Assembly (NCBI GenBank): GCA_963713865.1
Contig: OY970208.1
Span: forward strand, 1,152,001-1,216,000
Length of the DNA stretch: 64,000 nt
Source: an uncultured candidate division Zixibacteria bacterium
GTDB lineage: Bacteria; Zixibacteria; MSB-5A5; RBG-16-43-9
Direction: 5' to 3'
In this document: positions 23,972-49,527 of the stretch, piece after piece
Numbering within the stretch: the first letter of the stretch is position 1
Layout of the letters: each line of letters opens with the position of its first letter
The notes under the pieces: generated by a model
Database searches by the model: none
Told to the model about the DNA's origin: nothing
Seen by the model: the letters and a program-made list of their open reading frames with translations, nothing else
Translations under genes and position numbers: made by a program

Positions 23972-24017
23972 AAATAAAATCTGGAAATTAATAACAAACA
24001 TAAAAAAGGAAAAATAA

Positions 24018-24593
24018 ATGGAACAAAAGGAAATCATAGATATCTTTAAAAAGTCAAAAGCTCTTTTAAATGGTCATTTTCTATTGTCCTCAGGTCTGCA
24101 CAGCGATATCTATTTTGAAAAGTTTCAGGTGCTGCAGTATCCTGAATATGTGGAGCTTTTATGTGAAGAGTTAGCCAGGCTTTTCAAGAAGGAGAAGATT
24201 CAGGTGGTAGTGGGACCGACCACTGGCGGGATTATTATTGCTTATGAAGTGGCAAAGAGTTTAAAGGTCAGGTCGATTTTCGCTGAGATGGAAGAAGGAA
24301 AAAGGGTTTTCAAACGAGGGTTTGATCTGCAAGAGAATGAGAGGGTTTTGATTGTGGATGATATTCTGACAACCGGCAAATCAGTGCAGGAAGTTATAGA
24401 TTTGGTAAATAGATATAAAGCTAAAATAATAGGGATCGGAGTCCTTTTAGATAGAAGCGGAAGCAAAGTTCAATTTGCTTATCCTTTAAAACCTTTAGCC
24501 TCTGTTGTTGCCAAAACCTTCAAACCTGAAGAGTGCCCCCTGTGTAAAGAAGGGAAAGTTTTAGTTAAGCCGGGAAGCAGGAAGATGGTTTGA
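24018..24593 (+). CDS. pyrE: Orotate phosphoribosyltransferase
   Basis: GHFLLSSGLHS..Y, VLIVDDILTTGKS, C-terminal CPLC...KPGSR. Confidence 0.93.
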   Translation: MEQKEIIDIFKKSKALLNGHFLLSSGLHSDIYFEKFQVLQYPEYVELLCEELARLFKKEKIQVVVGPTTGGIIIAYEVAKSLKVRSIFAEMEEGKRVFKRGFDLQENERVLIVDDILTTGKSVQEVIDLVNRYKAKIIGIGVLLDRSGSKVQFAYPLKPLASVVAKTFKPEECPLCKEGKVLVKPGSRKMV

Positions 24594-24746
24594 GGTTGTT
24601 TTTATCAGGAGTGTAAACCTTTAAGTTTACCAAATAGTGTGGTAACCCCGCCTTGTCTTCAAGGCGGGGTTTGTTTGAATAGTAGCCGCAACCTTTAGTT
24701 CGCGAAAAAAGAAAAACGCAGACTTAAGTCTGCGGCTACCGGTTGA

Positions 24747-25199
24747 TTATTTCAGGCTGAACTTAACTTTGTACTTCACCCAGACTGCTACTGGGTTACC
24801 TGCACTGAGAGCTGGTTTGTATTCATACTGCAGAGCAGATTTTGTTGCTGGCTCGCAGAAGATATACGGCTTATCACTCGAATCTCTCAGGCACTCCACA
24901 TCCCTGACTTTTCCCTGTCTGTCGATTAGCGCCTTAATCCAGACCTCTCCTTCTATCCCTGCTTTTTTAGCTGAGTCAGGATAGACTGGCTGGACAGTTT
25001 TTATCGGTTGTGGTGCCTCATCATAGGTAACAAATTCATCCGGGGAAGGAAGGGAGTCCTCACTCAGGGCTTGAGCTTTTCCTGCAGAGGTGGTAGTATC
25101 TTCTCCAGCCATCTTCTCTTTGTTCGCACTCTGTTTCTGGCAATAAAATGCTGTGGACAGTAGAAAAAGAGCGATAAGAAGAAGTATTACTTTTTTCAT
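24747..25199 (-). CDS. Exported TonB C-terminal domain protein
   Basis: P.YP..AKKAGIEG.V....LID..GKV, Y.PA...G.PV.VW. Confidence 0.85.
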   Translation of the reverse strand: MKKVILLLIALFLLSTAFYCQKQSANKEKMAGEDTTTSAGKAQALSEDSLPSPDEFVTYDEAPQPIKTVQPVYPDSAKKAGIEGEVWIKALIDRQGKVRDVECLRDSSDKPYIFCEPATKSALQYEYKPALSAGNPVAVWVKYKVKFSLK

Positions 25200-25284
25200 C
25201 TTGATCCTCCTTTCGGTTAAGATTTGTTTTTGTTTGCGTGTAAAGATATTAACATAGACTAAAATTTGTTGCTACCTGCTTTTA

Positions 25285-26418
25285 TTAAATTTTCATTTCA
25301 TAAATCCTGTATTTCTTATAAAGCTTAGCCCCGAATGTTTCCAGGGCGTGATTGATTAGAAAGTTGTCCTCTAAATTCCAGGACATCTCTGCCCATTTAT
25401 ACCCTTTCTTCACCCCATTCGTATAGGTGTCTATATAAAATACGGTATCGATCCCCCTCTTCTGATATTTATGAATTACGCCCATAGTTAAAAGTCTAAG
25501 CCCATCGATTACCTTATGAAATTTGGTGAACCAGAGAAGCTTGAAAATTCCAAAAGGGAAAAGCCTGCCATTTAGCTTAATCAACAATTGATTTATATCC
25601 GGCAAAGCCATTGAAAAACCAGCCGGCTCTCCATCTACCTCAGCAATAAAGACTAAATCCGGGTCAACTATCTTTTTGAAATCTTTGGCTAAATGCTCAA
25701 ACTCCTCATCCGTCATAGGGATTGCTCCCCAGTTTTCGCTCCAGGCTAAATTATAGATCTTTTTTATCTTTTCTATCTCACCTTCAAAATCATTTAAATT
25801 CAGTTTACGAACAACTATATTCTTCTTTTTTCTCACCAGCTCAGCTATCCTTTTGAACCTTTCAGGGGGCCGAATACTTTTTTCCATGTAAAAAGCATAT
25901 AGGTCTTTGGCTTTTACCATACCGTATTTTTCCATAAAATCCAGGTAATATTTAGGATTGTAGGTCATCATAAAAACCGGTGGAAAATCAAACCCTTCTA
26001 TGAGGAAGCCGAGCTCGTCATTAACCGAGAAATTCATCGGTCCACGCATAAGCACCATACCTCTGGATTTAAGCCAATCTTTAACTTTATCCAGCAATTT
26101 TTTTGCCACTGCGAAATCCTCGATTGACTCAAAGAAGCCGAAAAATCCAGCTTTTTCCTGATGGGTCTCTATATGTTTGAAGTTCACCAGACCGGCGATT
26201 CGGCCGACTATCTTTTTATCTTTTTCTGCTAAGAATAGAATTACATCAGCATGTTTATAAAATGGATTTTTTTCCGGATTGAAAAAGGCTTTTCTTTCGG
26301 AGATCAAAGGAGGGACCCAGTTTTTATCATATTTATAGATTTTCCAGGGAAATTGGATGAAATCGAGTAAATCCTTTTTGTTTTCCACTACTCTTATTTT
26401 AAGCTCTTCTTTTTCCAT
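25285..26418 (-). CDS. YghO-like GNAT acyltransferase, candidate bacterial ceramide synthase (bCerS)
   Basis: FIQFPW.IY..D.NWVPPL, GRIAG, GFFGFFES, GPMNFS.NDE.G.LIEGF, YNP.YY, SWNLEDN motifs. Confidence 0.7.
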   Translation of the reverse strand: MEKEELKIRVVENKKDLLDFIQFPWKIYKYDKNWVPPLISERKAFFNPEKNPFYKHADVILFLAEKDKKIVGRIAGLVNFKHIETHQEKAGFFGFFESIEDFAVAKKLLDKVKDWLKSRGMVLMRGPMNFSVNDELGFLIEGFDFPPVFMMTYNPKYYLDFMEKYGMVKAKDLYAFYMEKSIRPPERFKRIAELVRKKKNIVVRKLNLNDFEGEIEKIKKIYNLAWSENWGAIPMTDEEFEHLAKDFKKIVDPDLVFIAEVDGEPAGFSMALPDINQLLIKLNGRLFPFGIFKLLWFTKFHKVIDGLRLLTMGVIHKYQKRGIDTVFYIDTYTNGVKKGYKWAEMSWNLEDNFLINHALETFGAKLYKKYRIYEMKI

Positions 26419-26709
26419 CGAATAAGCTACCTCTCTTTTATCTGAAGACTCGCTTTTGGTAAGTTTATTTCCTGAACTAAGTCAAAAAAGAAATTAACAC
26501 TTGAGTTTGGGTAAGGCAATAGTTTTTTTAGTATTAAGATTTTTAGTGGTATAACAATATATGCTATATAGGATTGTTGCTTAATTCTTTTTTGGAGATA
26601 TCTTATTTAAGGATAGGGTTTGTCCCTGTCCTAATCCTAATAAGGACAACAATATGAGTTGTCTCTGAATTAAATTCATCATCAACTAAAGAAATTTATA
26701 ATAAAAGAA

Positions 26710-26827
26710 GGGAGCCTGCTTAGAAGACTATCTGGCGGGGGCACAAGTCTATGTCTAATTCTTCACTTAGCGGAATTACCTGTGCGTAGTCCTCGAAAGA
26801 GCAGCGCTCCCAAAAAAAGTTATCCTC
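26710..26827 (-). ncRNA. Putative sigma54-dependent structured small RNA
   Basis: Nested stems GGGAGC/GCUCCC, CUGCU/AGCAG, GACUA/UAGUC, GCACAGG/CUUGUGC, UAAUUC/GAAUUA; U-rich tail; begins about 12 nt downstream of a -24/-12 element. Confidence 0.6.
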
Positions 26828-26837
26828 AAAAAATATA

Positions 26838-26853
26838 AGCAACTTTTATGCCA
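26838..26853 (-). promoter_or_regulatory. sigma54 (-24/-12) promoter
   Basis: TGGCATAAAAGTTGCT: GG-N10-GC, close to consensus TGGCAC-N5-TTGCW. Confidence 0.75.
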
Positions 26854-26900
26854 GTTGTATATAAAAAGGAGACAATTGTAACCTTATGTTTAACATATAC

Positions 26901-26930
26901 TTGACTTTAACTTTCTTTCTTTGCTATAAC
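26901..26930 (+). promoter_or_regulatory. Possible sigma70 promoter toward the portal gene
   Basis: TTGACT-18 nt-TATAAC with extended -10 TG. Confidence 0.4.
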
Positions 26931-26945
26931 ATGTTAATTTAAAAA

Positions 26946-27038
26946 TGTTCAATTTTTAGACACTTTAGATCTTTACAGATTATATCCTTAATTCTATCTT
27001 AAAGTTACATAATAGTTTTTTTGTCAATTATATTGACA
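26946..27038. promoter_or_regulatory. Two 17-bp palindromic protein-binding sites (enhancer/UAS- or operator-like)
   Basis: TGTCAAT-TAT-ATTGACA (27022-27038, perfect arms) and TGTTCAA-TTT-TTAGACA (26946-26962), 76 bp apart, both followed by CT. Confidence 0.55.
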
Positions 27039-27215
27039 CTAAAACAGCTTAAGTGTTTTTGTCAGAGGCAGATTAACCTCGCCTGGGCGATTTTGAATAG
27101 GGCTACACTATAAAATAGAAGAATAAATAATATTATACCTGACAAACTTACCTTTAACAAATTCAAAAAATCTACTTTTATGATGGAAAAGATGAAAAAT
27201 AACCAGATTTAGAAG

Positions 27216-28532
27216 ATGAAAATCAAAAAATTTTTCAAAAATTTAATAATAAAAGGAAGCCTTCCATCTAAAAAGGAAAACAACAAATCTTTTCCCCTTC
27301 AGGAAAAGGTTCTCAGCTCATACAGACATCTACCATCAACACCACTTTCTAAAGGTTCATTTAGTTCTGAGGATAATGATATTATTCTTCCATCCCGGCA
27401 ACTTTACGATCGTACCTTTAAAATCAAGCTTTACAGATTATTAAGAGATAATATTCCTGCAATAAATTCAGCTATCTGGACCTGGACCAGGCTCTCCTCT
27501 GCTCCCTCTTCTTACAAGCTAAAAGGGAGCGAGGACCAGGATATTCTAAATCAGGCTTCAAAAATAATCTCGAACTTAGACCGAAGAGTCTACCAGCACT
27601 CCTTCCACAAATTTGGTGGAATTGAAGCTTTGCTTACTCAATTCTTCTACTCCCTTTTCACGGATGGGGCGGTATGTGGAGAATTAGTTTTAAACCCTTC
27701 GCAAAATCGTTTAGATAAGTTCTATTTTATCGATCCCTCTACCATAAGGTTCAAGTTATCCAGAACAAACTATGAGCTTTATCAAGAAATTGATGGGGAA
27801 ATGATTAGACTGAATCAGAATTCAACTTACTATTATGGTTTGGACCCTGATCCGGAAGACCCTTGTGGGAGAAGCATTTTATCCTCTATCCCTTTTGTTA
27901 CCAGGATTGAACAGAGATTGCTTTCGGATATGCAGAAAAGTATGCATAATGCCGGGTATCATCGTCTGCATGTAAAGCTAAAACCACCAGAAAGGTTGCC
28001 TTCTGAATCGAATGAGGCTTATATCGGTAGAGCTAATCGTTATTTTGAGGATACTGTGGAGATGATGAGAAAAATTTCGGTGGAAGATAATCCGATAACC
28101 TGGAACGATGTGCAGATAGATTATATCGGACCCCAGGGGGGTTATGCTGCCACCACTTCCTGGTATATTAATCATAAAGCCTTAATTGAGGAGATCTGTG
28201 CAGGTGTTCACTTAGATCCGTTTATCTTAGGGTATTCTTATGGAGCGCCCTATAGCTGGGCACAGATAAAATATGAGATGATTCAAAGGAACATAATCTC
28301 CATCCAGGCTTCCGCTAAACGCTTTATGGAATGGATACACAATTTAGAGCTGGCGCTTCAAGGGTTAGATTTAGAATACGAGCATCATTTTGATAACCGA
28401 AAGACTTTTGGTCTATTAGAACAAAGACAGGCAGAGAAAATCGCTCTGGAGAATATTATTTTGAAAAAGAATACCGGATTGATAGATGAAGAAGAGGCGA
28501 AAAGGGAAATAAAAATAACTGATGACAAATGA
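27216..28532 (+). CDS. Phage portal-like protein
   Basis: LYR.LR..IP.I.SAI, L.TDG...GELV, IDP.TIRF, P.GRS.L..IPF, EEICAG....PFILG pattern typical of portals; next to a terminase gene. Confidence 0.75.
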   Translation: MKIKKFFKNLIIKGSLPSKKENNKSFPLQEKVLSSYRHLPSTPLSKGSFSSEDNDIILPSRQLYDRTFKIKLYRLLRDNIPAINSAIWTWTRLSSAPSSYKLKGSEDQDILNQASKIISNLDRRVYQHSFHKFGGIEALLTQFFYSLFTDGAVCGELVLNPSQNRLDKFYFIDPSTIRFKLSRTNYELYQEIDGEMIRLNQNSTYYYGLDPDPEDPCGRSILSSIPFVTRIEQRLLSDMQKSMHNAGYHRLHVKLKPPERLPSESNEAYIGRANRYFEDTVEMMRKISVEDNPITWNDVQIDYIGPQGGYAATTSWYINHKALIEEICAGVHLDPFILGYSYGAPYSWAQIKYEMIQRNIISIQASAKRFMEWIHNLELALQGLDLEYEHHFDNRKTFGLLEQRQAEKIALENIILKKNTGLIDEEEAKREIKITDDK

Positions 28533-28815
28533 CAGATAAATAAAGGTTCAAAGGTTCAAAAACTCAATGGTTTAAAGGGAAATGAAAAAAGAAGATTAAA
28601 ACATAGAAGTTAAAATGTTTCAGTGCTTATCAGTTCCTATGAGGTAGAAATACCTCGGGGATTTATCCCCTCTCCTTTTTAAGGAGAGGGTCGGAGTGAG
28701 GTTATTTTTTCGCTCACATCTTTTTTTCATCCTTCGGCATCCGTCGTTAGTAGTTATTTTTTTAATCTGTCATCTTCTATTTTGCTTTCGTTATTTTCTA
28801 TTTGTAGGTGATTTA

Positions 28816-30147
28816 TTGGATAAACAATATCTCTGGAGAAAAGCGCTTAAAGACCCGCTCTATTTTGCCCGTGAATTCTTAGAGATTGAGCCTCATCCCG
28901 GTCAGGCCCTCTGGCTAAAGAGCTCAATCAAACCAGAAAACGCACTGCACACCGGGAATCGCTGGGGGAAAAGCCTTTGCCAGGCGATAAAAATCGTTCA
29001 TCGCTCGATTTTTAAAATCCGCAAGACTAGATATAATACCACAGAAAAATATACGGCAGTAAATGTATCTGTAACCCTTGACCAGGCAAAGATAATCTTC
29101 GATAAAGCAGTCGGTTTTTTAAAAGGGAAAAAGATATTAGAGCCTTTGGTTCAGGATATAAGGTCAACTCCGTTTCCACATATCGTCTTCTCCAATTCTG
29201 CGGTTTTCTGGGCACGCTCCACTCAGAGAAAAGGGGAATATCTTTTAGGATATGATTATGACTATTGTAATTTCGATGAAGTTGCCTTTGAGCCTCATCC
29301 TGAATATGTGGTTAATAATGTGATTATGATGAGACTTTGTGATCGAGCCGGGATGTTAGATTATACTTCTACCCCTAAGGGTAAAAACTGGTTCTATCGC
29401 AAATGCTTAGAGTTAAAATCTCATCTAGAATATGGATATGTCCAGGGGGGCGACACCCGGGAAAATTCTCATATCTCCACTGAGTATATTCAAAGGAAAT
29501 TGAAAACACTGTCAAATTCCAAGGTCGAGCAGAATATAATGGGAAATTTTATAGATGACCCGGATCAGGTTATAGAGGAAAAATATATCAGTCAGGCAAC
29601 CTCAAATTCTTCTGGACTTTCTTCTCCTAAAGAAGGACATCGCTATTCAACTGGATGGGATTTAGCGCGAAAAAGAAACTATACCGTAGGGATAACTTTA
29701 GACATTTCCAGCAAGCCATACCAGCTGGTCTCCCTGGAGAGATTTCAAAGGGGTTGGAAAGAGACGATTGAGTCGATCAGGAAAAGAAAGAAGGATTATG
29801 GGGGAGAGGTTTTGATAGATTCAACTGGTTTAGGGGATGTGATCTTAGAGGAGTTAAAAGATATAAATGTTAGAGGGTTTAATTTCGGGGAAAAAGGGGG
29901 AAAGGTTAAATCTGAGCTTATTGCCAATTTGCAAAAGGAGCATTCATTAAGTAATATTGCTTATCCTTATGTTGAGTTTATAGAAGAAGACGGTTCCCTG
30001 TGGTCTTTACAGGATGAATTAAGGGATTTTACTTGGGATACTAAGGAAAACTGTGATGCGGTGATGGCACTAGCGTTAGCCCTGTGGAATGTGAGAACCC
30101 CGGAACAGCTTCCCCTGATTCTGGTGCCGAGGGTGGAAAAAATCTAA
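28816..30147 (+). CDS. terL: Phage terminase large subunit
   Basis: TTG start after GTAGGTG; adenine-binding Q motif (HPGQ), Walker A GNRWGKS, Walker B YCNFDE, coupling motif TSTP.G.NWFY, RNase H-like nuclease GWDLAR / IDSTGLG / DAVMALALA. Confidence 0.88.
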   Translation: MDKQYLWRKALKDPLYFAREFLEIEPHPGQALWLKSSIKPENALHTGNRWGKSLCQAIKIVHRSIFKIRKTRYNTTEKYTAVNVSVTLDQAKIIFDKAVGFLKGKKILEPLVQDIRSTPFPHIVFSNSAVFWARSTQRKGEYLLGYDYDYCNFDEVAFEPHPEYVVNNVIMMRLCDRAGMLDYTSTPKGKNWFYRKCLELKSHLEYGYVQGGDTRENSHISTEYIQRKLKTLSNSKVEQNIMGNFIDDPDQVIEEKYISQATSNSSGLSSPKEGHRYSTGWDLARKRNYTVGITLDISSKPYQLVSLERFQRGWKETIESIRKRKKDYGGEVLIDSTGLGDVILEELKDINVRGFNFGEKGGKVKSELIANLQKEHSLSNIAYPYVEFIEEDGSLWSLQDELRDFTWDTKENCDAVMALALALWNVRTPEQLPLILVPRVEKI

Positions 30148-30188
30148 ATTATAGAGGCAAGGGTGTATGGCATTACATCCCTATTTAT

Positions 30189-30833
30189 CTAAAAAGGTAG
30201 AATCTCTTTTATCTTTGGCAGAAAAGTCTTGAGAAAATCTTCAAGCACAAGCTGAGCTTCTTTTTCCGAGATCTGGTTTAGAGACAGGTTTATGCGGACA
30301 AGGACGGCATCAGTAGGTGCTCTTTTTAACGAATTTAAAACCAGATCTAGTTTCAATCCTAACTCGCTGGTTATTATCCTGCTTCTGGTTTGAAACCAGT
30401 AATACATAACTTCTCTGGACAGCTTATCGGAGATCAAAAGTTTATTTACCTTAAGGTCTGAGCCTGTATCTGTTTTGATCAGAATCTTCCTTCGACTCAT
30501 AATCTTCCAGCCGCTACCGGGCAGGCAGTTCTTGGGGGAGTGAATCTGTGAACCATATTTCTGGCTCTTAAAATAGGCGATGAAAAGCCAGAGTTCTTTT
30601 CCTTCACTACTGGTATATTTCCTGAAAGCATAAGTATCAGCTTTGAGGACCTGGTTGGTCTCATCAGAAAAGAAATATTCCTGACCGTTCCAGTCTGCGT
30701 ACTGAAGAGGGAGAGAGGAAAAGAGAGGGAATCTCTTCGATTCGACTCGAGAGTAGCGCAGGATATTTATCAGTATCCCGGTTAGAACAAAAAGGATCAG
30801 GACTATCCAGAATTCTTTTTTTTTAAAGCCCAT
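30189..30833 (-). CDS. epsI: EpsI family (exosortase-associated) periplasmic protein
   Basis: LP....W.G, L.AD.Y..R.Y, LFIAYF.SQ....QIHSPKNCLPGSGW, YYWFQ.R, DAVLVR. Confidence 0.88.
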   Translation of the reverse strand: MGFKKKEFWIVLILFVLTGILINILRYSRVESKRFPLFSSLPLQYADWNGQEYFFSDETNQVLKADTYAFRKYTSSEGKELWLFIAYFKSQKYGSQIHSPKNCLPGSGWKIMSRRKILIKTDTGSDLKVNKLLISDKLSREVMYYWFQTRSRIITSELGLKLDLVLNSLKRAPTDAVLVRINLSLNQISEKEAQLVLEDFLKTFLPKIKEILPF

Positions 30834-30882
30834 AACTTTAACCTCAGAGGAAATATAAAAAAGGATAGGGAAAAGTCAACCC

Positions 30883-32358
30883 TTAGAGTATAAATTCAGA
30901 AAGGTCTATCTTATATTTCTGGGGATCCAGGCACCTCACTGGCATCTTAGATTCCTCCATTTCCGCAGGATATTCTGAGCTTTGGCCCAAATCCAGAGTC
31001 TCAGGTGTTTTTTTAATCCCATTCTGGTCTGCGATAATTTTTAGTTTGGGTAGAGTGAGGTTCTCCGGATTATTTTTTATCACTATCCCTATCTCCCCGG
31101 TATTTAAAAGGACCAGGGAGCCCACCGGATAAACCCCCAAGATATTTATAAAAAGTTTCAACAAGCAGGAATCATAAACTTTATCCCGGGCATAAAACAT
31201 CTTCCTCAAAGCTTCATCCGGCAGATAAGGGGTTTTAATATATACCCGGCCCGAGGTCATAGCATCATAAGCATCGGCAATGCTTACTATACGGGAGAAC
31301 AGGTTTAACTCTCTTTTGTTTTTAACCTTAGGATAACCGGAAAGGTCGAGGTTCAGATGGTGTTCAAAACTAACCAGCATAGCCCTCATTGAAAAGGGAT
31401 CGAACTTTAAACTGATTAAAAGGTTTTTTACTCCCCAGATCGGGTGTTTTTTCATCCTCGTCCATTCGGATTCATTGAATTCAGAAGGTTTGTTTAAAAG
31501 CTCCAAGGGTAAATTTGTTTTTCCAATATCGTGAAACAGGGCGGCAAGGCCTAATTCGCTTAACTTCTTTTTGTTTAAACCCAATCTCAATCCCAGGATT
31601 AAGGAGAGGATACAGACGTTGGTAGAATGGAGATAAGTATATTCATCGTAGTTTCTTAAAGAAGAAAGCTCTAAGAAGATCTCCTCGTTCAGCAGGAGCT
31701 GATCTACTAAAGATTGAACTACCCTTTTCACTTTAACCAGATTTATCTCTTTACCTGCCTGAGCTCTCTGGCTGATCTCTCGCACCATAGAGAAAGCTTT
31801 GGTGAAAGTTTTTTTCGCAACCTTTCGCTGGTCTAAAGAGATCTGGTCAGCTTCTAAAACGGAAGACTCTTTTTCCTTTTCCAGGTGAAGGTTCTGGAGA
31901 TTTTCCTCAAAGATTTTTTTCTCCAAACTTTCAAATGGCTCCATATCCTCAGTATCTATTTGTGCTAGAATATAGATCAAGCTTTGCAAATCCTTCTGGG
32001 TTAATCCGTCCTCCAGAGCAAGTTTATAGATCTTCAGTTTTTTCAAGAACTCCAGGATAAATCGGCTGGCAACATAATTTTCGAAATCGAATCTCAGACG
32101 GGCTTGATTTAAAAACAGATAACCTTCCTGGGTGCTTAAGTTAAGCTCACCCTCCTTTTCAATTAACTCCCTGACTAAATCCATCAGGGGATGGATCTGT
32201 TTCTGGAAAGCGGCATTATTCGGTTCGTATATAAGGGAGGTCTTAAGGGTAGAATAGAATAGATTTATAAACACCTTCCCTTTTTCTAAAAGATGTAAAG
32301 ACGCCTCTTTCTTCTCTTTTCTTTCCTGAGCATTAACCGGTTCAACTAACTTATTCAA
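30883..32358 (-). CDS. HD-GYP domain protein (c-di-GMP phosphodiesterase-like)
   Basis: DEYTYLHS.NV, LFHDIGK, HP..G, EHH...D.SGYP, IADAYDAMTS.R.Y. Confidence 0.92.
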   Translation of the reverse strand: MNKLVEPVNAQERKEKKEASLHLLEKGKVFINLFYSTLKTSLIYEPNNAAFQKQIHPLMDLVRELIEKEGELNLSTQEGYLFLNQARLRFDFENYVASRFILEFLKKLKIYKLALEDGLTQKDLQSLIYILAQIDTEDMEPFESLEKKIFEENLQNLHLEKEKESSVLEADQISLDQRKVAKKTFTKAFSMVREISQRAQAGKEINLVKVKRVVQSLVDQLLLNEEIFLELSSLRNYDEYTYLHSTNVCILSLILGLRLGLNKKKLSELGLAALFHDIGKTNLPLELLNKPSEFNESEWTRMKKHPIWGVKNLLISLKFDPFSMRAMLVSFEHHLNLDLSGYPKVKNKRELNLFSRIVSIADAYDAMTSGRVYIKTPYLPDEALRKMFYARDKVYDSCLLKLFINILGVYPVGSLVLLNTGEIGIVIKNNPENLTLPKLKIIADQNGIKKTPETLDLGQSSEYPAEMEESKMPVRCLDPQKYKIDLSEFIL

Positions 32359-47369: not shown

Positions 47370-48549
47370 TTAAGCTTTTTTTCCTGACGGATCCATTTCT
47401 GACAAAACCCAGATTAGTTTTTCTATATCCTCAAGTGAATTGTAGAAATGAGGAGATACTCGTATTGAGTTCTCCCTGAAGGAGGTCAGTATTTTTTTCT
47501 GTGAAAGAGCTCGGTGCAGTTTTGGACAATTTTTACCAGAAAAAGAAAGTATACCTGATCGGTACAGGGGCTCAAGTGAGCTTTTGATCTGGTAAGGGGT
47601 ATTTTTTAGATAATCTATTAGAAGGTCTAAAAGTTTTATGACCTGATTCTCGATAGCTTTAGTTCCAATTTCGGATATAAGCTCTAAAGAGGAACACATC
47701 GTCCATAGATTTGAAAAAGGGTAAGTCCCTATCTCAAACCTTCGACTGGAGGAGAAGCGGGGAAGGTCATATTTCAAAAGATCAGAGAAATTCAATTTCC
47801 AGTCAACACTCATCCAGCCGAAAAAAGCAGGATCGATTTTCATCTTAGCATTATCTGAAAGATAGAAAAAGCCTGTGCCCAGAGAGGAGAGCAGCCACTT
47901 CTGACCTCCACAGGCTAAGAAATCTATTTTACATTTTTTAACATCTAAATCCAGAACAGCCTACTCCCTGGATTCCATCTACAACAAAGAAAATATTTTT
48001 TTCCTCACAGATTTTTCCAATAGTCTCCAAGTTATTTTTAAAACCATTGAAAAACTGAACATAGGTTATCGATAAGACTTTGCACTTTGAATCGATAGCT
48101 TTAAGGAGATCATCTATGCAAAAAAAACCGTTCTGGCTTTTAATAAATTTTATCTTCACGCCCTTCTTTTTCAGATTCAGCCAAGGATAAACATTTGCCG
48201 GAAACTCCACATCTGAAAGCAAAACCTTATCCCCATATTTAAAGTCCAGTCCATTTGCCACGATATTTAAACCATAAGAAGTGTTGGGCACCAATCCAAT
48301 TTCTTTCGGTTTTGCGTTTACCATTTTAGCCAGATATATTCTGATCTGGTCCATCATCTCAAAAGTCAACTTATCCATATCCACAACTTTTTTAAGGGTC
48401 AAAGCATCATAATATTCCATTGTTTTTTTCAAAGCTCTTAAAGGAATGGGACCAAATGAGGCGTGATTAAGAAAATTAACTTTTTGGGTGAAGGGGAATT
48501 CCCTTCTGTATCTTGCTAACTCTTTTGATTTGGTCTTTCTTAGAGCCAT
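47370..48549 (-). CDS. Class V PLP aminotransferase / cysteine desulfurase-like, split by an apparent +1 frameshift at 47951-47957
   Basis: FLNHASFGP, EFPANVYPW, VDGIQ.VG; removing one T restores ..GC-LDLDVKKCKIDFLACGGQKWLL..GTG and a 392-aa protein ending past RVSPHFYN. Confidence 0.85.
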
Positions 48550-49527
48550 TTATTCTCCTTATACCATTTTATAGTTTCTAAAGCACCCTTTTCTAAATCA
48601 TACTCCGGCGAAAATCCTAATTCATTTTTTGCTTTTGAAATGTCGCAGAGCCAGTACCTCTGGCTTAGCTCATTTGCTTTCTGAAGATTTACCAGAGCAG
48701 ATTCCCCTTTCAGGTGAGAGACCATTTCGGAGAAAGAGGCAAATGTGAACAAAAAGAATTTAGGGATTCTTAATTTAAAAGCTCTTATACCTAAGGATTT
48801 CTGGATGATCTTTCCAGCTTCTGTCCAGGAATAAACCTTTTCATCTGCTATAAAGTAGATCTGTCCGGAACTCTTTTGGTTTTCTGCGGTTAAAATTATC
48901 CCCCGGGTTAAATCTTTAACATATATCAGGGAAATATAACTTTCTTTGAATCCAAAGAGAGGAATTATCCTTTTGTTCACCGTCTGGAAAAAAAATAAAA
49001 TATCTTTATCTCTTGGACCATAAACCGCAGGTGGTCGAACTATAGTAACCGGAAACTTCTCCTTAAAACTCAATACCTCTTTTTCTCCCTGAAGCTTACT
49101 TCTGCCATAATCGGTGATCGGCTCGCATTTTGCATCTTCATTTAAAGGGTAAAAATCTTTGCAGGGACCAACTGCGGCTTGACTGCTGACATAAACAAAC
49201 TTCTTAATATGAGAATTGATCTCCAGAACAGGTTTGAATCAGGTTTTTAGTTCCCTGGGCATTTGCTTTAAAATAATCCTCTTTATTTTTCGCTCGGGTT
49301 AAACCAGCCAGATGGAAAACGAAATCTACCCCTTCTAAAGCTTTTCTTAAGGACTCAACCTCTGTTATATCTCCGTATCTATATTCAGTTTCCAGTCCTG
49401 AAAGAAAACTTAAGTTGCTCGTTTTCCTGACCAGGCAGAAAACCTCATAACGCTTGTTTAACAGAGCTTCAACTAAATGGCTCCCCACAAATCCATTTGC
49501 ACCGGTAACTAAGGCTTTAGGGCTCAA
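48540..49527 (-). CDS. NAD-dependent epimerase/dehydratase-family reductase (CerR-like), split by an apparent +1 frameshift at 49223-49229
   Basis: LVTGANGFVG, VFHLAG; removing one T restores ..TC-LEINSHIKKFVYVSSQAA..PITDYGRSK..VRPPAVYGPRD, 328 aa. Confidence 0.85.

What the first reader, a model, noticed from the sequence alone, without database searches (positions are those of the whole stretch)
27216..30147. Orphan intact portal + large terminase pair embedded in housekeeping DNA (domesticated, GTA-like packaging module)
Seen: a portal-like gene and a terminase with complete ATPase (GNRWGKS, FDE, TSTP) and nuclease (D, D, D) motifs sit between a lipid acyltransferase and epsI. The 64 kb contain no recognisable capsid, small terminase, tail, integrase or att repeats. 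The order is portal then terL, and a host REP copy (28667-28701) lies between the two genes, suggesting long residence. Established: gene transfer agents and other domesticated phage systems keep intact packaging genes, sometimes split across several loci. Inference: part of a dispersed GTA-like or other host-co-opted DNA packaging machine, rather than a decaying prophage.
Basis: partly seen in the sequence, partly recalled or inferred. Interest (0 to 1): 0.8.

Follow-up and report, generated by a model that had tools for sequence, protein, structure and literature searches.

The report
Phylum-wide domesticated phage packaging genes
The lone portal and large-terminase genes are one third of a virus-derived capsid gene set that nearly all Zixibacteria have inherited vertically, here scattered over three chromosomal sites, so it most likely builds gene-transfer-agent-like particles rather than being a dying prophage.

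Summary
ORF 27216-28532 is a portal: PHROG E 5.7e-36, and the AF2 model matches phage portals in Foldseek at E 8e-12. ORF 28696-30147 is a TerL with intact ATPase and nuclease motifs. Its true start is probably TTG 28816.

The window holds no other phage gene, but the genome does. About 75 kb and 108 kb downstream lie a protease-like head gene, the major capsid protein, a head-to-tail adaptor, a cell-wall hydrolase and several conserved unknowns. In most other Zixibacteria these genes form one 12-14 kb cluster headed by portal-TerL.

- TerL is found in 191 of 201 sampled genomes and the capsid gene in 190 of 201, mostly one match per genome.
- Gene trees track RpoB.
- dN/dS is 0.06-0.24.
- Codon use is host-like.

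No integrase, att repeat or defence-system hit was found. The best reading is an ancient, domesticated, GTA-like particle system that I could not find in print. Particle production and DNA transfer are not shown. One complete genome keeps the portal and capsid genes but lacks TerL.

The parts
26710..26817 (+). Conserved ~108-nt non-coding element about 400 nt upstream of the portal. It may be a cis-regulatory or small RNA tied to the pair. The strand is not settled.
   Evidence: It is 80-83% identical in other genera of the family, where the coding DNA is 75-77% identical. A 6-sequence alignment gives 34 predicted pairs, 3 of them with compensatory changes. It is single copy in the genome. It was found only in family f1. 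No Rfam match. MFE z-score is -2.8 on + and -3.4 on -.
27216..28532 (+). Portal protein, 438 aa. The first ~65 residues are poorly conserved and predicted disordered.
   Evidence: PHROG phrog_3753 E 5.7e-36. AF2 model plus Foldseek portal matches at E 8e-12. Found in 37 of 41 relatives. dN/dS 0.15-0.24 within the genus.
28667..28701 (.). REP-like palindromic hairpin in the portal-TerL spacer. It is a dispersed host repeat and resembles a terminator.
   Evidence: About 40 mostly partial blastn-short matches across the genome at E <= 1, including copies beside the second locus of the element. 5 copies at <=4 mismatches of 35. The spacer is not alignable within the genus. Overlaps terminator-like sites listed.
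28816..30147 (+). Large terminase (TerL), 443 aa from TTG 28816. The longest ORF starts at GTG 28696, but its first 40 codons are probably not translated.
   Evidence: PHROG phrog_2 E 2.8e-27. PDB profile hits to TerL nuclease and ATPase domains. Walker A, Walker B, C-motif and nuclease acidic residues are invariant in 13 of 13 sequences. Start codon and SD sequence. Found in 191 of 201 genomes of the phylum sample. dN/dS 0.06-0.08 within the genus.

Best explanation
The pair is the DNA-packaging module of an ancient, vertically inherited, virus-derived particle gene set shared by almost the whole phylum Zixibacteria.

Usual layout. In most members the set is one 12-14 kb cluster in this order:
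- portal
- TerL
- a ~600-aa protein with a prohead-protease-like N-terminus
- small proteins
- a 140-aa virion protein
- the major capsid protein
- a ~475-aa Asp-box protein
- a gp6-like head-to-tail adaptor carrying an Ig-like insert
- several conserved unknowns

Layout here. In this genome the set has been broken into three loci spread over about 125 kb of ordinary chromosome. They lie at genome positions 1.179, 1.255 and 1.289-1.304 Mb. Only the first is inside the window. The element therefore cannot package itself as a unit.

Inferred mechanism. The portal dodecamer seeds a procapsid built from the distant capsid gene. TerL docks on the portal, cuts DNA and pumps it in. No sequence-specific small terminase is recognisable, so the packaged DNA would be host DNA. 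That would make the system a gene transfer agent (viriform) or a close functional analogue.

Shown versus inferred.
- Shown: the gene identities, the dispersal, the vertical descent, purifying selection and host-like codon use.
- Inferred: particle assembly, packaging of host DNA, and release and transfer.
For: Identity of the pair.

Rest of the set in the same genome:
- Capsid protein, phrog_3922 E 1.4e-59.
- Virion protein, phrog_4588.
- f2, phrog_16951. Its N-terminus sits nearest to viral clusters in the ESM Atlas, with S77/S78 prohead proteases as the nearest named families at 0.90-0.91 (a lead only).
- Adaptor fold for f6. VIA-align top hits are the Mu neck subunit (Z 9.3), phiCD508 neck, P74-26 neck, T4 gp13/14, HK97 gp6 (Z 8.0) and an RcGTA virion chain (Z 7.5).
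- A glucosaminidase (Pfam E 1.6e-15).

Cluster structure: one cluster in most of 21 compared genomes, with no integrase or replication gene among 17 cluster and flank proteins scanned.

Distribution:
- TerL in 191 of 201 genomes, and in 173 of 180 high-quality ones.
- Capsid in 190 of 201.
- Portal in 37 of 41.
- Single copy in the own genome.

Descent:
- Identity falls with rank. TerL is 91-93% within the genus, 80-84% within the family, 66-71% within the order and 44-58% within the class.
- TerL and portal share 15 and 13 of 19 splits with RpoB, against at most 3 and 2 in 1000 label shuffles. Careful trees give the same counts.

Selection and composition:
- Within-genus dN/dS is 0.15-0.24 for portal and 0.06-0.08 for TerL.
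- For the G000-G001 pair the values are 0.16 and 0.07, against 0.06-0.26 for 12 neighbouring host genes.
- Codon use is closer to the genome mean than 85% (portal) and 96% (TerL) of 851 long ORFs.

Dispersal arose repeatedly. The TerL-to-capsid distance is 2.4-7 kb in, for example, G009, G012, G100, G115 and G126. It is 108 kb here, 101 kb in G057, 59 kb in G066 and 410 kb in G205 (coordinates).

The split f5 gene of this assembly reads as one 474-aa ORF once a 1-nt difference is applied, and contigs from three independent runs carry that difference.

No PADLOC hit.
Against: - There are no data on expression, particles or packaged DNA.
- A tail is not demonstrated. 17 tail-side and small proteins from other genomes gave no functional PHROG hit: 15 gave none and 2 gave weak hits to families of unknown function. 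Foldseek on f6 was unclear. The VIA Z values of 8-9 fall in the range the tool calls 'middling'.
- No small terminase is recognised.
- G073 is a single-contig genome, 99% complete. It keeps an open portal (60% identity), the capsid gene and other members, but has an unrelated 475-aa ORF in the TerL slot. No TerL was found anywhere in that genome, even with a profile.
- G058 and G137 have the capsid gene but neither portal nor TerL.
- 8 genomes have TerL but no capsid match, among them G049 and G122 at 99% completeness.
- 4 to 6 of 19 deep splits differ from the RpoB tree.
- All of these genomes appear to be metagenome assemblies. The 200 sampled relatives are all labelled same class or closer, so 'phylum-wide' means the sampled class.
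Confidence: 0.6

Rival explanations
1. It is a domesticated particle, but not for gene transfer. One option is a PBSX-like defective-phage killer particle (phage-like bacteriocin) that happens to package host DNA. Another is a device for releasing DNA into the matrix.
For: The gene content is the same as in the best explanation, and nothing here separates transfer from killing. A cell-wall hydrolase sits in the set. The f6 fold also matches YqbG of a Bacillus defective prophage at Z 7.9.
Against: No toxin or holin-like gene was recognised in the cluster. Conservation at phylum scale with host-like rates is documented for alphaproteobacterial GTAs (passages read in PMC10883770). My recollection is that PBSX-type elements are conserved only over narrow ranges.
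Confidence: 0.2
2. The portal and TerL, or the capsid module, have been exapted separately for a job that does not need the complete particle. Examples would be DNA translocation without a capsid, or an empty capsid-like compartment.
For: The modules can be lost independently. G073 lacks TerL but keeps portal and capsid. G058 and G137 lack the pair but keep the capsid gene. 8 genomes have TerL without a capsid match.
Against: 178 of 201 sampled genomes have both TerL and the capsid gene (191 + 190 - 198 with at least one). Portal and TerL stay adjacent in 36 of 36 genomes. The TerL nuclease and ATPase motifs are invariant. Most of the 'losses' are in fragmented assemblies.
Confidence: 0.1
3. 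It is a decaying or cryptic prophage remnant that simply has not yet been deleted.
For: No capsid, tail or integrase lies next to the pair. One gene of the set (f5) is split in this assembly.
Against: The set is present in about 95% of 201 genomes and co-diverges with RpoB. dN/dS is 0.06-0.24. Catalytic motifs are invariant. Codon use is host-like. The f5 split is a 1-nt difference that three independent runs do not carry.
Confidence: 0.03
4. It is an active temperate phage or a phage satellite (PICI-like) that still moves between cells.
For: One copy of the element is filed as a viral contig in IMG/VR (L069). The nearest outside relative sits on a phage-like contig with all genes on one strand (L084/L085).
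Against: There is no integrase, no att repeats and no replication genes. The genes lie 75 and 108 kb apart here. The element is single copy and vertically inherited. Outside relatives are at most 42% identical and have a different gene order.
Confidence: 0.02

Closest known systems
RcGTA-type gene transfer agents of Alphaproteobacteria (viriforms)
   Same: Both are small head-plus-neck/tail gene sets of about 12-15 kb without replication or integration genes. Both are inherited vertically over very long times, and both have genes spread over several loci. For RcGTA, at least 24 genes lie in five loci, 17 of them in one head-tail cluster, with more than 700 My of residence (passages read in PMC10883770). 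The f6 adaptor fold also matches an RcGTA virion chain (6tba, Z 7.5).
   Different: The host phylum is different and the gene order is different (portal before TerL). The nearest phage relatives are Thermus phages for TerL, Bacillus and Brevibacillus phages for the portal, and uncultured gut phages for the capsid. An Asp-box protein sits behind the capsid gene, and some members carry a DNA-ligase domain. Homology to RcGTA genes was not tested directly. Particle production and transfer are unknown here.
PBSX / skin-type defective prophages of Bacillus
   Same: These are chromosomal, non-propagating phage-derived particles that package host DNA. The f6 adaptor resembles YqbG at Z 7.9.
   Different: From memory, those elements are confined to a narrow group of species and act as killer particles. 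The element here spans about 95% of a sampled phylum, and no killing function is evident.
Tailed phages with phrog_3753 portal, phrog_3922 capsid and P74-26/G20c-like TerL
   Same: The portal, TerL, capsid protein and f2/f4 head proteins are homologous. A metagenomic phage-like contig carries TerL, portal, f2, f4 and capsid together.
   Different: Identity is only 24-42%. The phage order is TerL before portal. The phage-like contigs have all genes on one strand. The Zixibacteria set lacks the rest of a phage genome and sits among host genes.

Membership tests
Tailed-phage portal protein | Sequence membership in portal families | tested here: met
   phrog_3753 E 5.7e-36, phrog_30703 E 5.2e-17, phrog_9232 E 5e-4. 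No Pfam portal family hit.
Tailed-phage portal protein | Portal fold (wing, stem, clip, crown) | tested here: met
   The AF2 model (pLDDT 73.4) gives Foldseek-PDB top hits that are all portals, E 8e-12 to 7e-8, TM 0.4-0.55.
Tailed-phage portal protein | Dodecameric ring at one capsid vertex | not testable with these tools
   No oligomer prediction or experiment was done.
Large terminase (TerL) | N-terminal ASCE ATPase with Walker A, Walker B and C-motif | tested here: met
   GNRWGKS, D-E and S-T-P are invariant in 13 of 13 sequences. The profile hits the P74-26 TerL ATPase 4znj at E 1e-6. Some orthologues carry PF03237.
Large terminase (TerL) | C-terminal RNase-H-like nuclease with acidic metal ligands | tested here: met
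   The profile hits TerL nuclease domains 5tge and 5m1f at E 6e-12 to 3e-11. D282, D335, D341 and D414 are invariant.
Large terminase (TerL) | Partner small terminase | tested here: inconclusive
   No TerS was recognised in the window or in the cluster. Small unassigned ORFs exist, including a 139-208 aa ORF between portal and TerL in G115, G142 and G034.
Gene transfer agent / viriform | Phage-derived structural genes without replication, integration or lysogeny genes | tested here: met
   Cluster content is described. There is no integrase in the window and no att repeats.
Gene transfer agent / viriform | Long vertical residence in the host lineage under purifying selection | tested here: met
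   TerL in 191 of 201 and capsid in 190 of 201 genomes. Tree congruence with RpoB. dN/dS 0.06-0.24. Host-like codon use.
Gene transfer agent / viriform | Cannot transmit its own genes as a unit | tested here: met
   In this genome the genes lie in three loci spanning about 125 kb with host genes between them. Capsid capacity itself was not measured.
Gene transfer agent / viriform | Particles package random host DNA and deliver it to recipients | not testable with these tools
   This needs particle-fraction sequencing or culture.
Gene transfer agent / viriform | Production under host regulation | not tested
   The only lead is a conserved non-coding element upstream of the portal. No motif shared among the three loci was found.
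Integrated prophage | Integrase, att repeats, contiguous complete genome | tested here: not met
Anti-phage defence system | Match to a known defence protein model | tested here: not met
   PADLOC gave 0 families for portal, TerL and three of the five neighbours tested. The HD-GYP and HEAT proteins gave only weak hits (E 6e-4 to 7e-3), which I do not regard as meaningful.

The most novel reading that the evidence does not exclude
Zixibacteria as a whole have kept a domesticated virus since their common ancestor. If so, this would be among the most broadly conserved GTA-like systems known, and an independent domestication from a phage lineage unrelated to RcGTA. Two features would be unusual. 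First, a head protein in some lineages is fused to an ATP-dependent DNA ligase / LigD phosphoesterase, which could be packed or delivered with the DNA to help it become established in the recipient. Second, in this family a dedicated structured RNA upstream of portal-TerL could couple the now-separated loci to host control.
Probability: 0.3. Interest if true: 0.85.

Novelty: new member of a known kind. Interest (0 to 1): 0.72.

Why it matters
Gene transfer agents are known from only a handful of lineages (a recalled list: alphaproteobacterial RcGTA, Bartonella, Brachyspira, Desulfovibrio, Methanococcus). How often cells domesticate viruses for DNA exchange is an open question.

This finding adds a candidate in an uncultured phylum of sediments and soils. 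It is conserved in about 95% of sampled genomes, co-diverges with the host and has been broken up repeatedly across the chromosome. These are the signatures used to argue that RcGTA is a host trait.

It provides a defined gene list (portal, TerL, protease-like protein, capsid, adaptor) to look for in particle-fraction metagenomes. It would also explain why virus-prediction tools flag Zixibacteria chromosomal DNA as viral: one copy of the element sits in IMG/VR.

I found no paper linking Zixibacteria to gene transfer agents (0 papers). The 3 papers holding both 'Zixibacteria' and 'terminase' and the 1 holding 'Zixibacteria' and 'capsid' are general surveys by their titles; I saw listings only. 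Supplements were closed, so large surveys could list the element there.

Tried and rejected
- Pfam Phage_capsid (PF05065) and encapsulin (PF04454) searches of the own genome found nothing useful. The capsid gene was found only through synteny in relatives and PHROGs.
- Expression: no RNA holder was listed for the pair, so expression could not be examined.
- A shared promoter or operator motif upstream of the five transcription-unit starts of the three loci was not convincing. The best shared words belong to the inserted SBBP/dockerin genes or are A/T-rich, and no statistical control was run.
- Rfam gave nothing above chance in 24000-31000.
- A covariance model of the upstream element found it only in family f1, plus one weak hit (E 0.29) upstream of the portal in G034.
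- The ESM Atlas gave no usable hit for the 684-aa protein.
- PHROGs gave no function for 17 tail-side and small proteins.
- Foldseek-PDB on f6 gave one partial phage baseplate hit and then noise.
- The genome-contig scan with a single TerL returned only 4 loci. It served to name the phylum.
- Cluster look-up of 10 outside TerL relatives returned no names.
- Considered and dropped: a defence system, a misassembly, and a second TerL family replacing the lost one in G073 (no terminase hit).
Full report
WHAT IS AT THE COORDINATES

ORF 27216-28532 (+, 438 aa) and ORF 28696-30147 (+, 483 aa) are present as described. Pfam recognises neither. PHROGs assigns the first to portal families (phrog_3753, E 5.7e-36) and the second to the large-terminase family phrog_2 (E 2.8e-27).

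An AlphaFold2 model of the portal, built from a 21-sequence alignment, has mean pLDDT 73.4, with the first ~63 residues disordered. Foldseek against the PDB returns only phage portals at the top: phage 812, T4 gp20, lambda, HK97 and G20c, at E 8e-12 to 7e-8.

A 13-sequence TerL profile hits the solved nuclease domains (5tge, 5m1f; E ~1e-11) and the ATPase domain (4znj; E 1e-6) of Thermus-phage terminases. They are GNRWGKS, the Walker-B D-E, S-T-P and four acidic nuclease residues.

Orthologues align only from residue 41-47. The only in-frame start codon in 28780-28830 is TTG 28816, behind an AGGTGA, so the real protein is probably 443 aa.

SURROUNDINGS

- The downstream gene is EpsI (TIGR02914 E 6.6e-41).
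- The upstream 377-aa gene is only weakly GNAT-like.
- 57 window ORFs were scanned with Pfam. The recognisable ones are housekeeping: PdxJ, ribonucleotide reductase, ThyX, PPDK, Lon, pyruvate kinase and others. None is a capsid, tail or integrase gene.
- There are no att-like repeats and no PADLOC hit for the pair.
- The hairpin at 28667-28701 belongs to a dispersed repeat, with about 40 mostly partial matches genome-wide. The spacer that holds it does not align even within the genus, so it is not evidence of age.

ORGANISM AND DISTRIBUTION

The window is from a 2.72-Mb single-contig genome. Same-genus records are titled Candidatus Zixiibacteriota.

- TerL is single copy in this genome. It is found in 37 of 41 relatives and in 191 of 201 genomes of a phylum sample, or 173 of 180 high-quality ones.
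- The portal is found in 37 of 41 relatives.
- In all 36 genomes that have both genes, they lie on the same contig and strand with the portal upstream. The gap is under 0.6 kb in 35 genomes and 2.1 kb in G034 (coordinates).
- TerL identity falls with rank: 91-93% (genus), 80-84% (family), 66-71% (order) and 44-58% (class).
- All sampled genomes are labelled same class or closer, so 'phylum-wide' here means the sampled class.

THE MISSING PARTS

I compared 20-kb neighbourhoods from 20 other genomes. In most of them portal-TerL heads a conserved cluster. Its members, in order, are:
- f2, about 600 aa. The N-terminus matches phrog_16951. G009 and G012 carry an ATP-dependent DNA ligase plus a LigD phosphoesterase domain. 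The family profile hits ligase adenylation domains at E 1e-7.
- Small proteins f7 and f24.
- f4, 140 aa, 'virion structural protein' phrog_4588.
- The major capsid protein, about 369 aa, phrog_3922 (E 1.4e-65).
- f5, about 475 aa, with Asp-box motifs and weak sialidase hits.
- f6, about 270 aa.
- f9, f11, a variable 400-700-aa protein, f14 and f18.

In this genome tblastn finds these genes in two further places:
- f2 (416 aa), f7 and f2C at genome positions 1255332-1257623.
- f4, capsid (373 aa, phrog_3922 E 1.4e-59), f5, f6, f9, f11, a 684-aa protein, a 228-aa protein, f14, a glucosaminidase and f18 at 1289279-1304379. Two SBBP/dockerin genes are inserted on the other strand within this stretch.

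These loci lie 75 kb and 108 kb beyond the pair and outside the window.

Further points on individual genes:
- f5 is split (223 + 269 aa) in this assembly. Contigs from three independent runs lack one base at the overlap, and without that base the gene reads as one 474-aa ORF. The window also holds other split housekeeping genes, so assembly indels are likely.
- f6 was modelled at pLDDT 86.4. Foldseek was unclear. An all-against-representatives VIA search placed head-to-tail adaptors and neck proteins at the top: Mu neck Z 9.3, phiCD508 neck, P74-26 neck, T4 gp13/14, JBD30 connector, HK97 gp6 Z 8.0, YqbG and an RcGTA virion chain Z 7.5. The inserted domain matched Ig-like domains of tail proteins. 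These Z values are in the range the tool calls middling, so this is a supported lead and not proof.
- The f2 N-terminus has invariant His and Ser residues and a Cys cluster. In the ESM Atlas it sits nearest to viral clusters, with S77 and S78 prohead proteases as the nearest named families at 0.90-0.91 (a lead only).

VERTICAL DESCENT AND SELECTION

- For 22 genomes, the TerL and portal trees share 15 and 13 of 19 splits with an RpoB tree, and 15 of 19 with each other.
- In 1000 label shuffles the maxima were 3, 2 and 4 shared splits for the three comparisons.
- Patristic distances correlate at Spearman 0.65, 0.66 and 0.82. Careful trees give the same split counts, and the discordant splits are deep ones.
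- Within-genus dN/dS (Nei-Gojobori) is 0.15-0.24 for the portal and 0.06-0.08 for TerL. More distant pairs are saturated at synonymous sites.
- Against the same-genus genome, 12 neighbouring host genes give 0.06-0.26.
- Codon use of both genes is closer to the genome mean than that of most long ORFs, at percentiles 15 and 4 of 851.
- Within the genus the pair has the same flanks, which rules out a misassembly junction.

RELATIVES OUTSIDE THE PHYLUM

- Best phage-collection matches are 25% identity for the portal (Bacillus and Brevibacillus phages), 24-29% for TerL (Thermus, Meiothermus) and 31-33% for the capsid (uncultured gut phages).
- In IMG/VR, 14 loci encode a TerL relative. One (L069) is the element itself. 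The rest are at most 42% identical and have a different gene order.
- An exhaustive search of 1.84 billion cluster representatives gave 1724 hits. After four full-length hits at 44-48% identity, consistent with other Zixibacteria families, full-length hits fall to about 37-41%. Taxon names were not available for any of these.
- The one outside relative I could place in context lies on a phage-like contig with TerL, portal, f2, f4 and capsid all on one strand.

RESULTS THAT CUT THE OTHER WAY

- The capsid gene is in 190 of 201 genomes.
- Three genomes lack both TerL and capsid, 7 lack only TerL, and 8 lack only the capsid.
- Most of these are fragmented assemblies. G073, however, is a single contig and 99% complete. 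It has an open portal, capsid, f2, f4, f5 (split), f6, f9 and f11, with an unrelated 475-aa ORF where TerL should be. No TerL was found anywhere in that genome, even with a profile.
- G058 and G137 have the capsid gene but neither member of the pair.
- No small terminase was recognised.
- No tail protein was recognised by sequence.
- No RNA data were available.

DISPERSAL IS RECURRENT

The TerL-to-capsid distance is 2.4-7 kb in G009, G012, G016, G100, G035, G115, G126, G081 and G070. It is 108 kb here, 101 kb in G057, 59 kb in G066, 410 kb in G205, and 10-27 kb (often inverted) in G003, G004, G007, G021, G040, G063 and G111 (coordinates).

READING

The pair is the packaging module of a domesticated, virus-derived particle system. 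The system is as old as the sampled Zixibacteria radiation and is split into three loci in this genome.

The closest known analogue is the alphaproteobacterial RcGTA. That element is encoded by at least 24 genes in five loci, 17 of them in one head-tail cluster, and has been inherited vertically for more than 700 My (passages read in PMC10883770).

Gene order and nearest phage relatives suggest an independent domestication. Direct homology to RcGTA was not tested.

I put the domesticated-particle reading at about 0.9 and gene-transfer-agent-like function at about 0.6. The main rival is a non-transfer particle of the PBSX type.

I found no paper that connects Zixibacteria with gene transfer agents (0 papers). 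The 'terminase' search (3 papers) and the 'capsid' search (1 paper) returned general surveys; I saw listings only. A broader four-term search was uninformative. Supplements were closed.

Noticed in passing
window 26710-26817: A ~108-nt non-coding element about 400 nt upstream of the portal is more conserved across genera than the coding DNA beside it. It has a predicted multi-stem structure of 34 pairs, 3 with compensatory changes. It is single copy in the genome, was found only in family f1, and has no Rfam match.
   Followed up: partly
L019:5508-7841 (-), L020:5965-8325 (-); own copy L040:7332-8582 (+): The head protein f2 carries an ATP-dependent DNA ligase plus LigD phosphoesterase domain in two genomes of a sister family, and the family profile hits ligase adenylation domains. 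The conserved N-terminus looks like a prohead protease with a Cys cluster. A ligase fused to a capsid-assembly protein is unusual.
   Followed up: partly
L038:5421-6677 (-) and L038:9443-10987 (-): Two paralogous SBBP beta-propeller/dockerin genes are inserted on the opposite strand inside the capsid-neck locus of this genome. The same 19-nt palindrome lies in the spacer at the 5' side of each, upstream of the adjacent f5 and f6.
   Followed up: no
window 47370-48549 and 48540-49527; L038:8073: Several genes are split by apparent single-base indels: an Aminotran_5 gene, an epimerase and the element's f5. For f5, contigs from independent runs lack the extra base. The assembly probably carries indel errors.
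   Followed up: partly
L083 (G073:C1:1553000-1572900): A complete relative has lost TerL. An unrelated 475-aa ORF follows the portal, and about 6 kb of other genes lie before f2. Portal, capsid and neck genes remain open.
   Followed up: partly
own genome 1254133, 1257747 (near L040) and window 28667-28701: Copies of the same REP-like hairpin lie next to two of the three loci of the element. They may act as terminators or may mark rearrangement points.
   Followed up: no
L030:4399-5604 (+) and equivalents in G126, G081, G070, G071, G150, G044: A PD-(D/E)XK nuclease gene (Pfam E 2.5e-34) is kept a few genes upstream of the portal in several families, together with TPR and glycosyltransferase genes. 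It could be a host partner of the element or simply conserved synteny.
   Followed up: no
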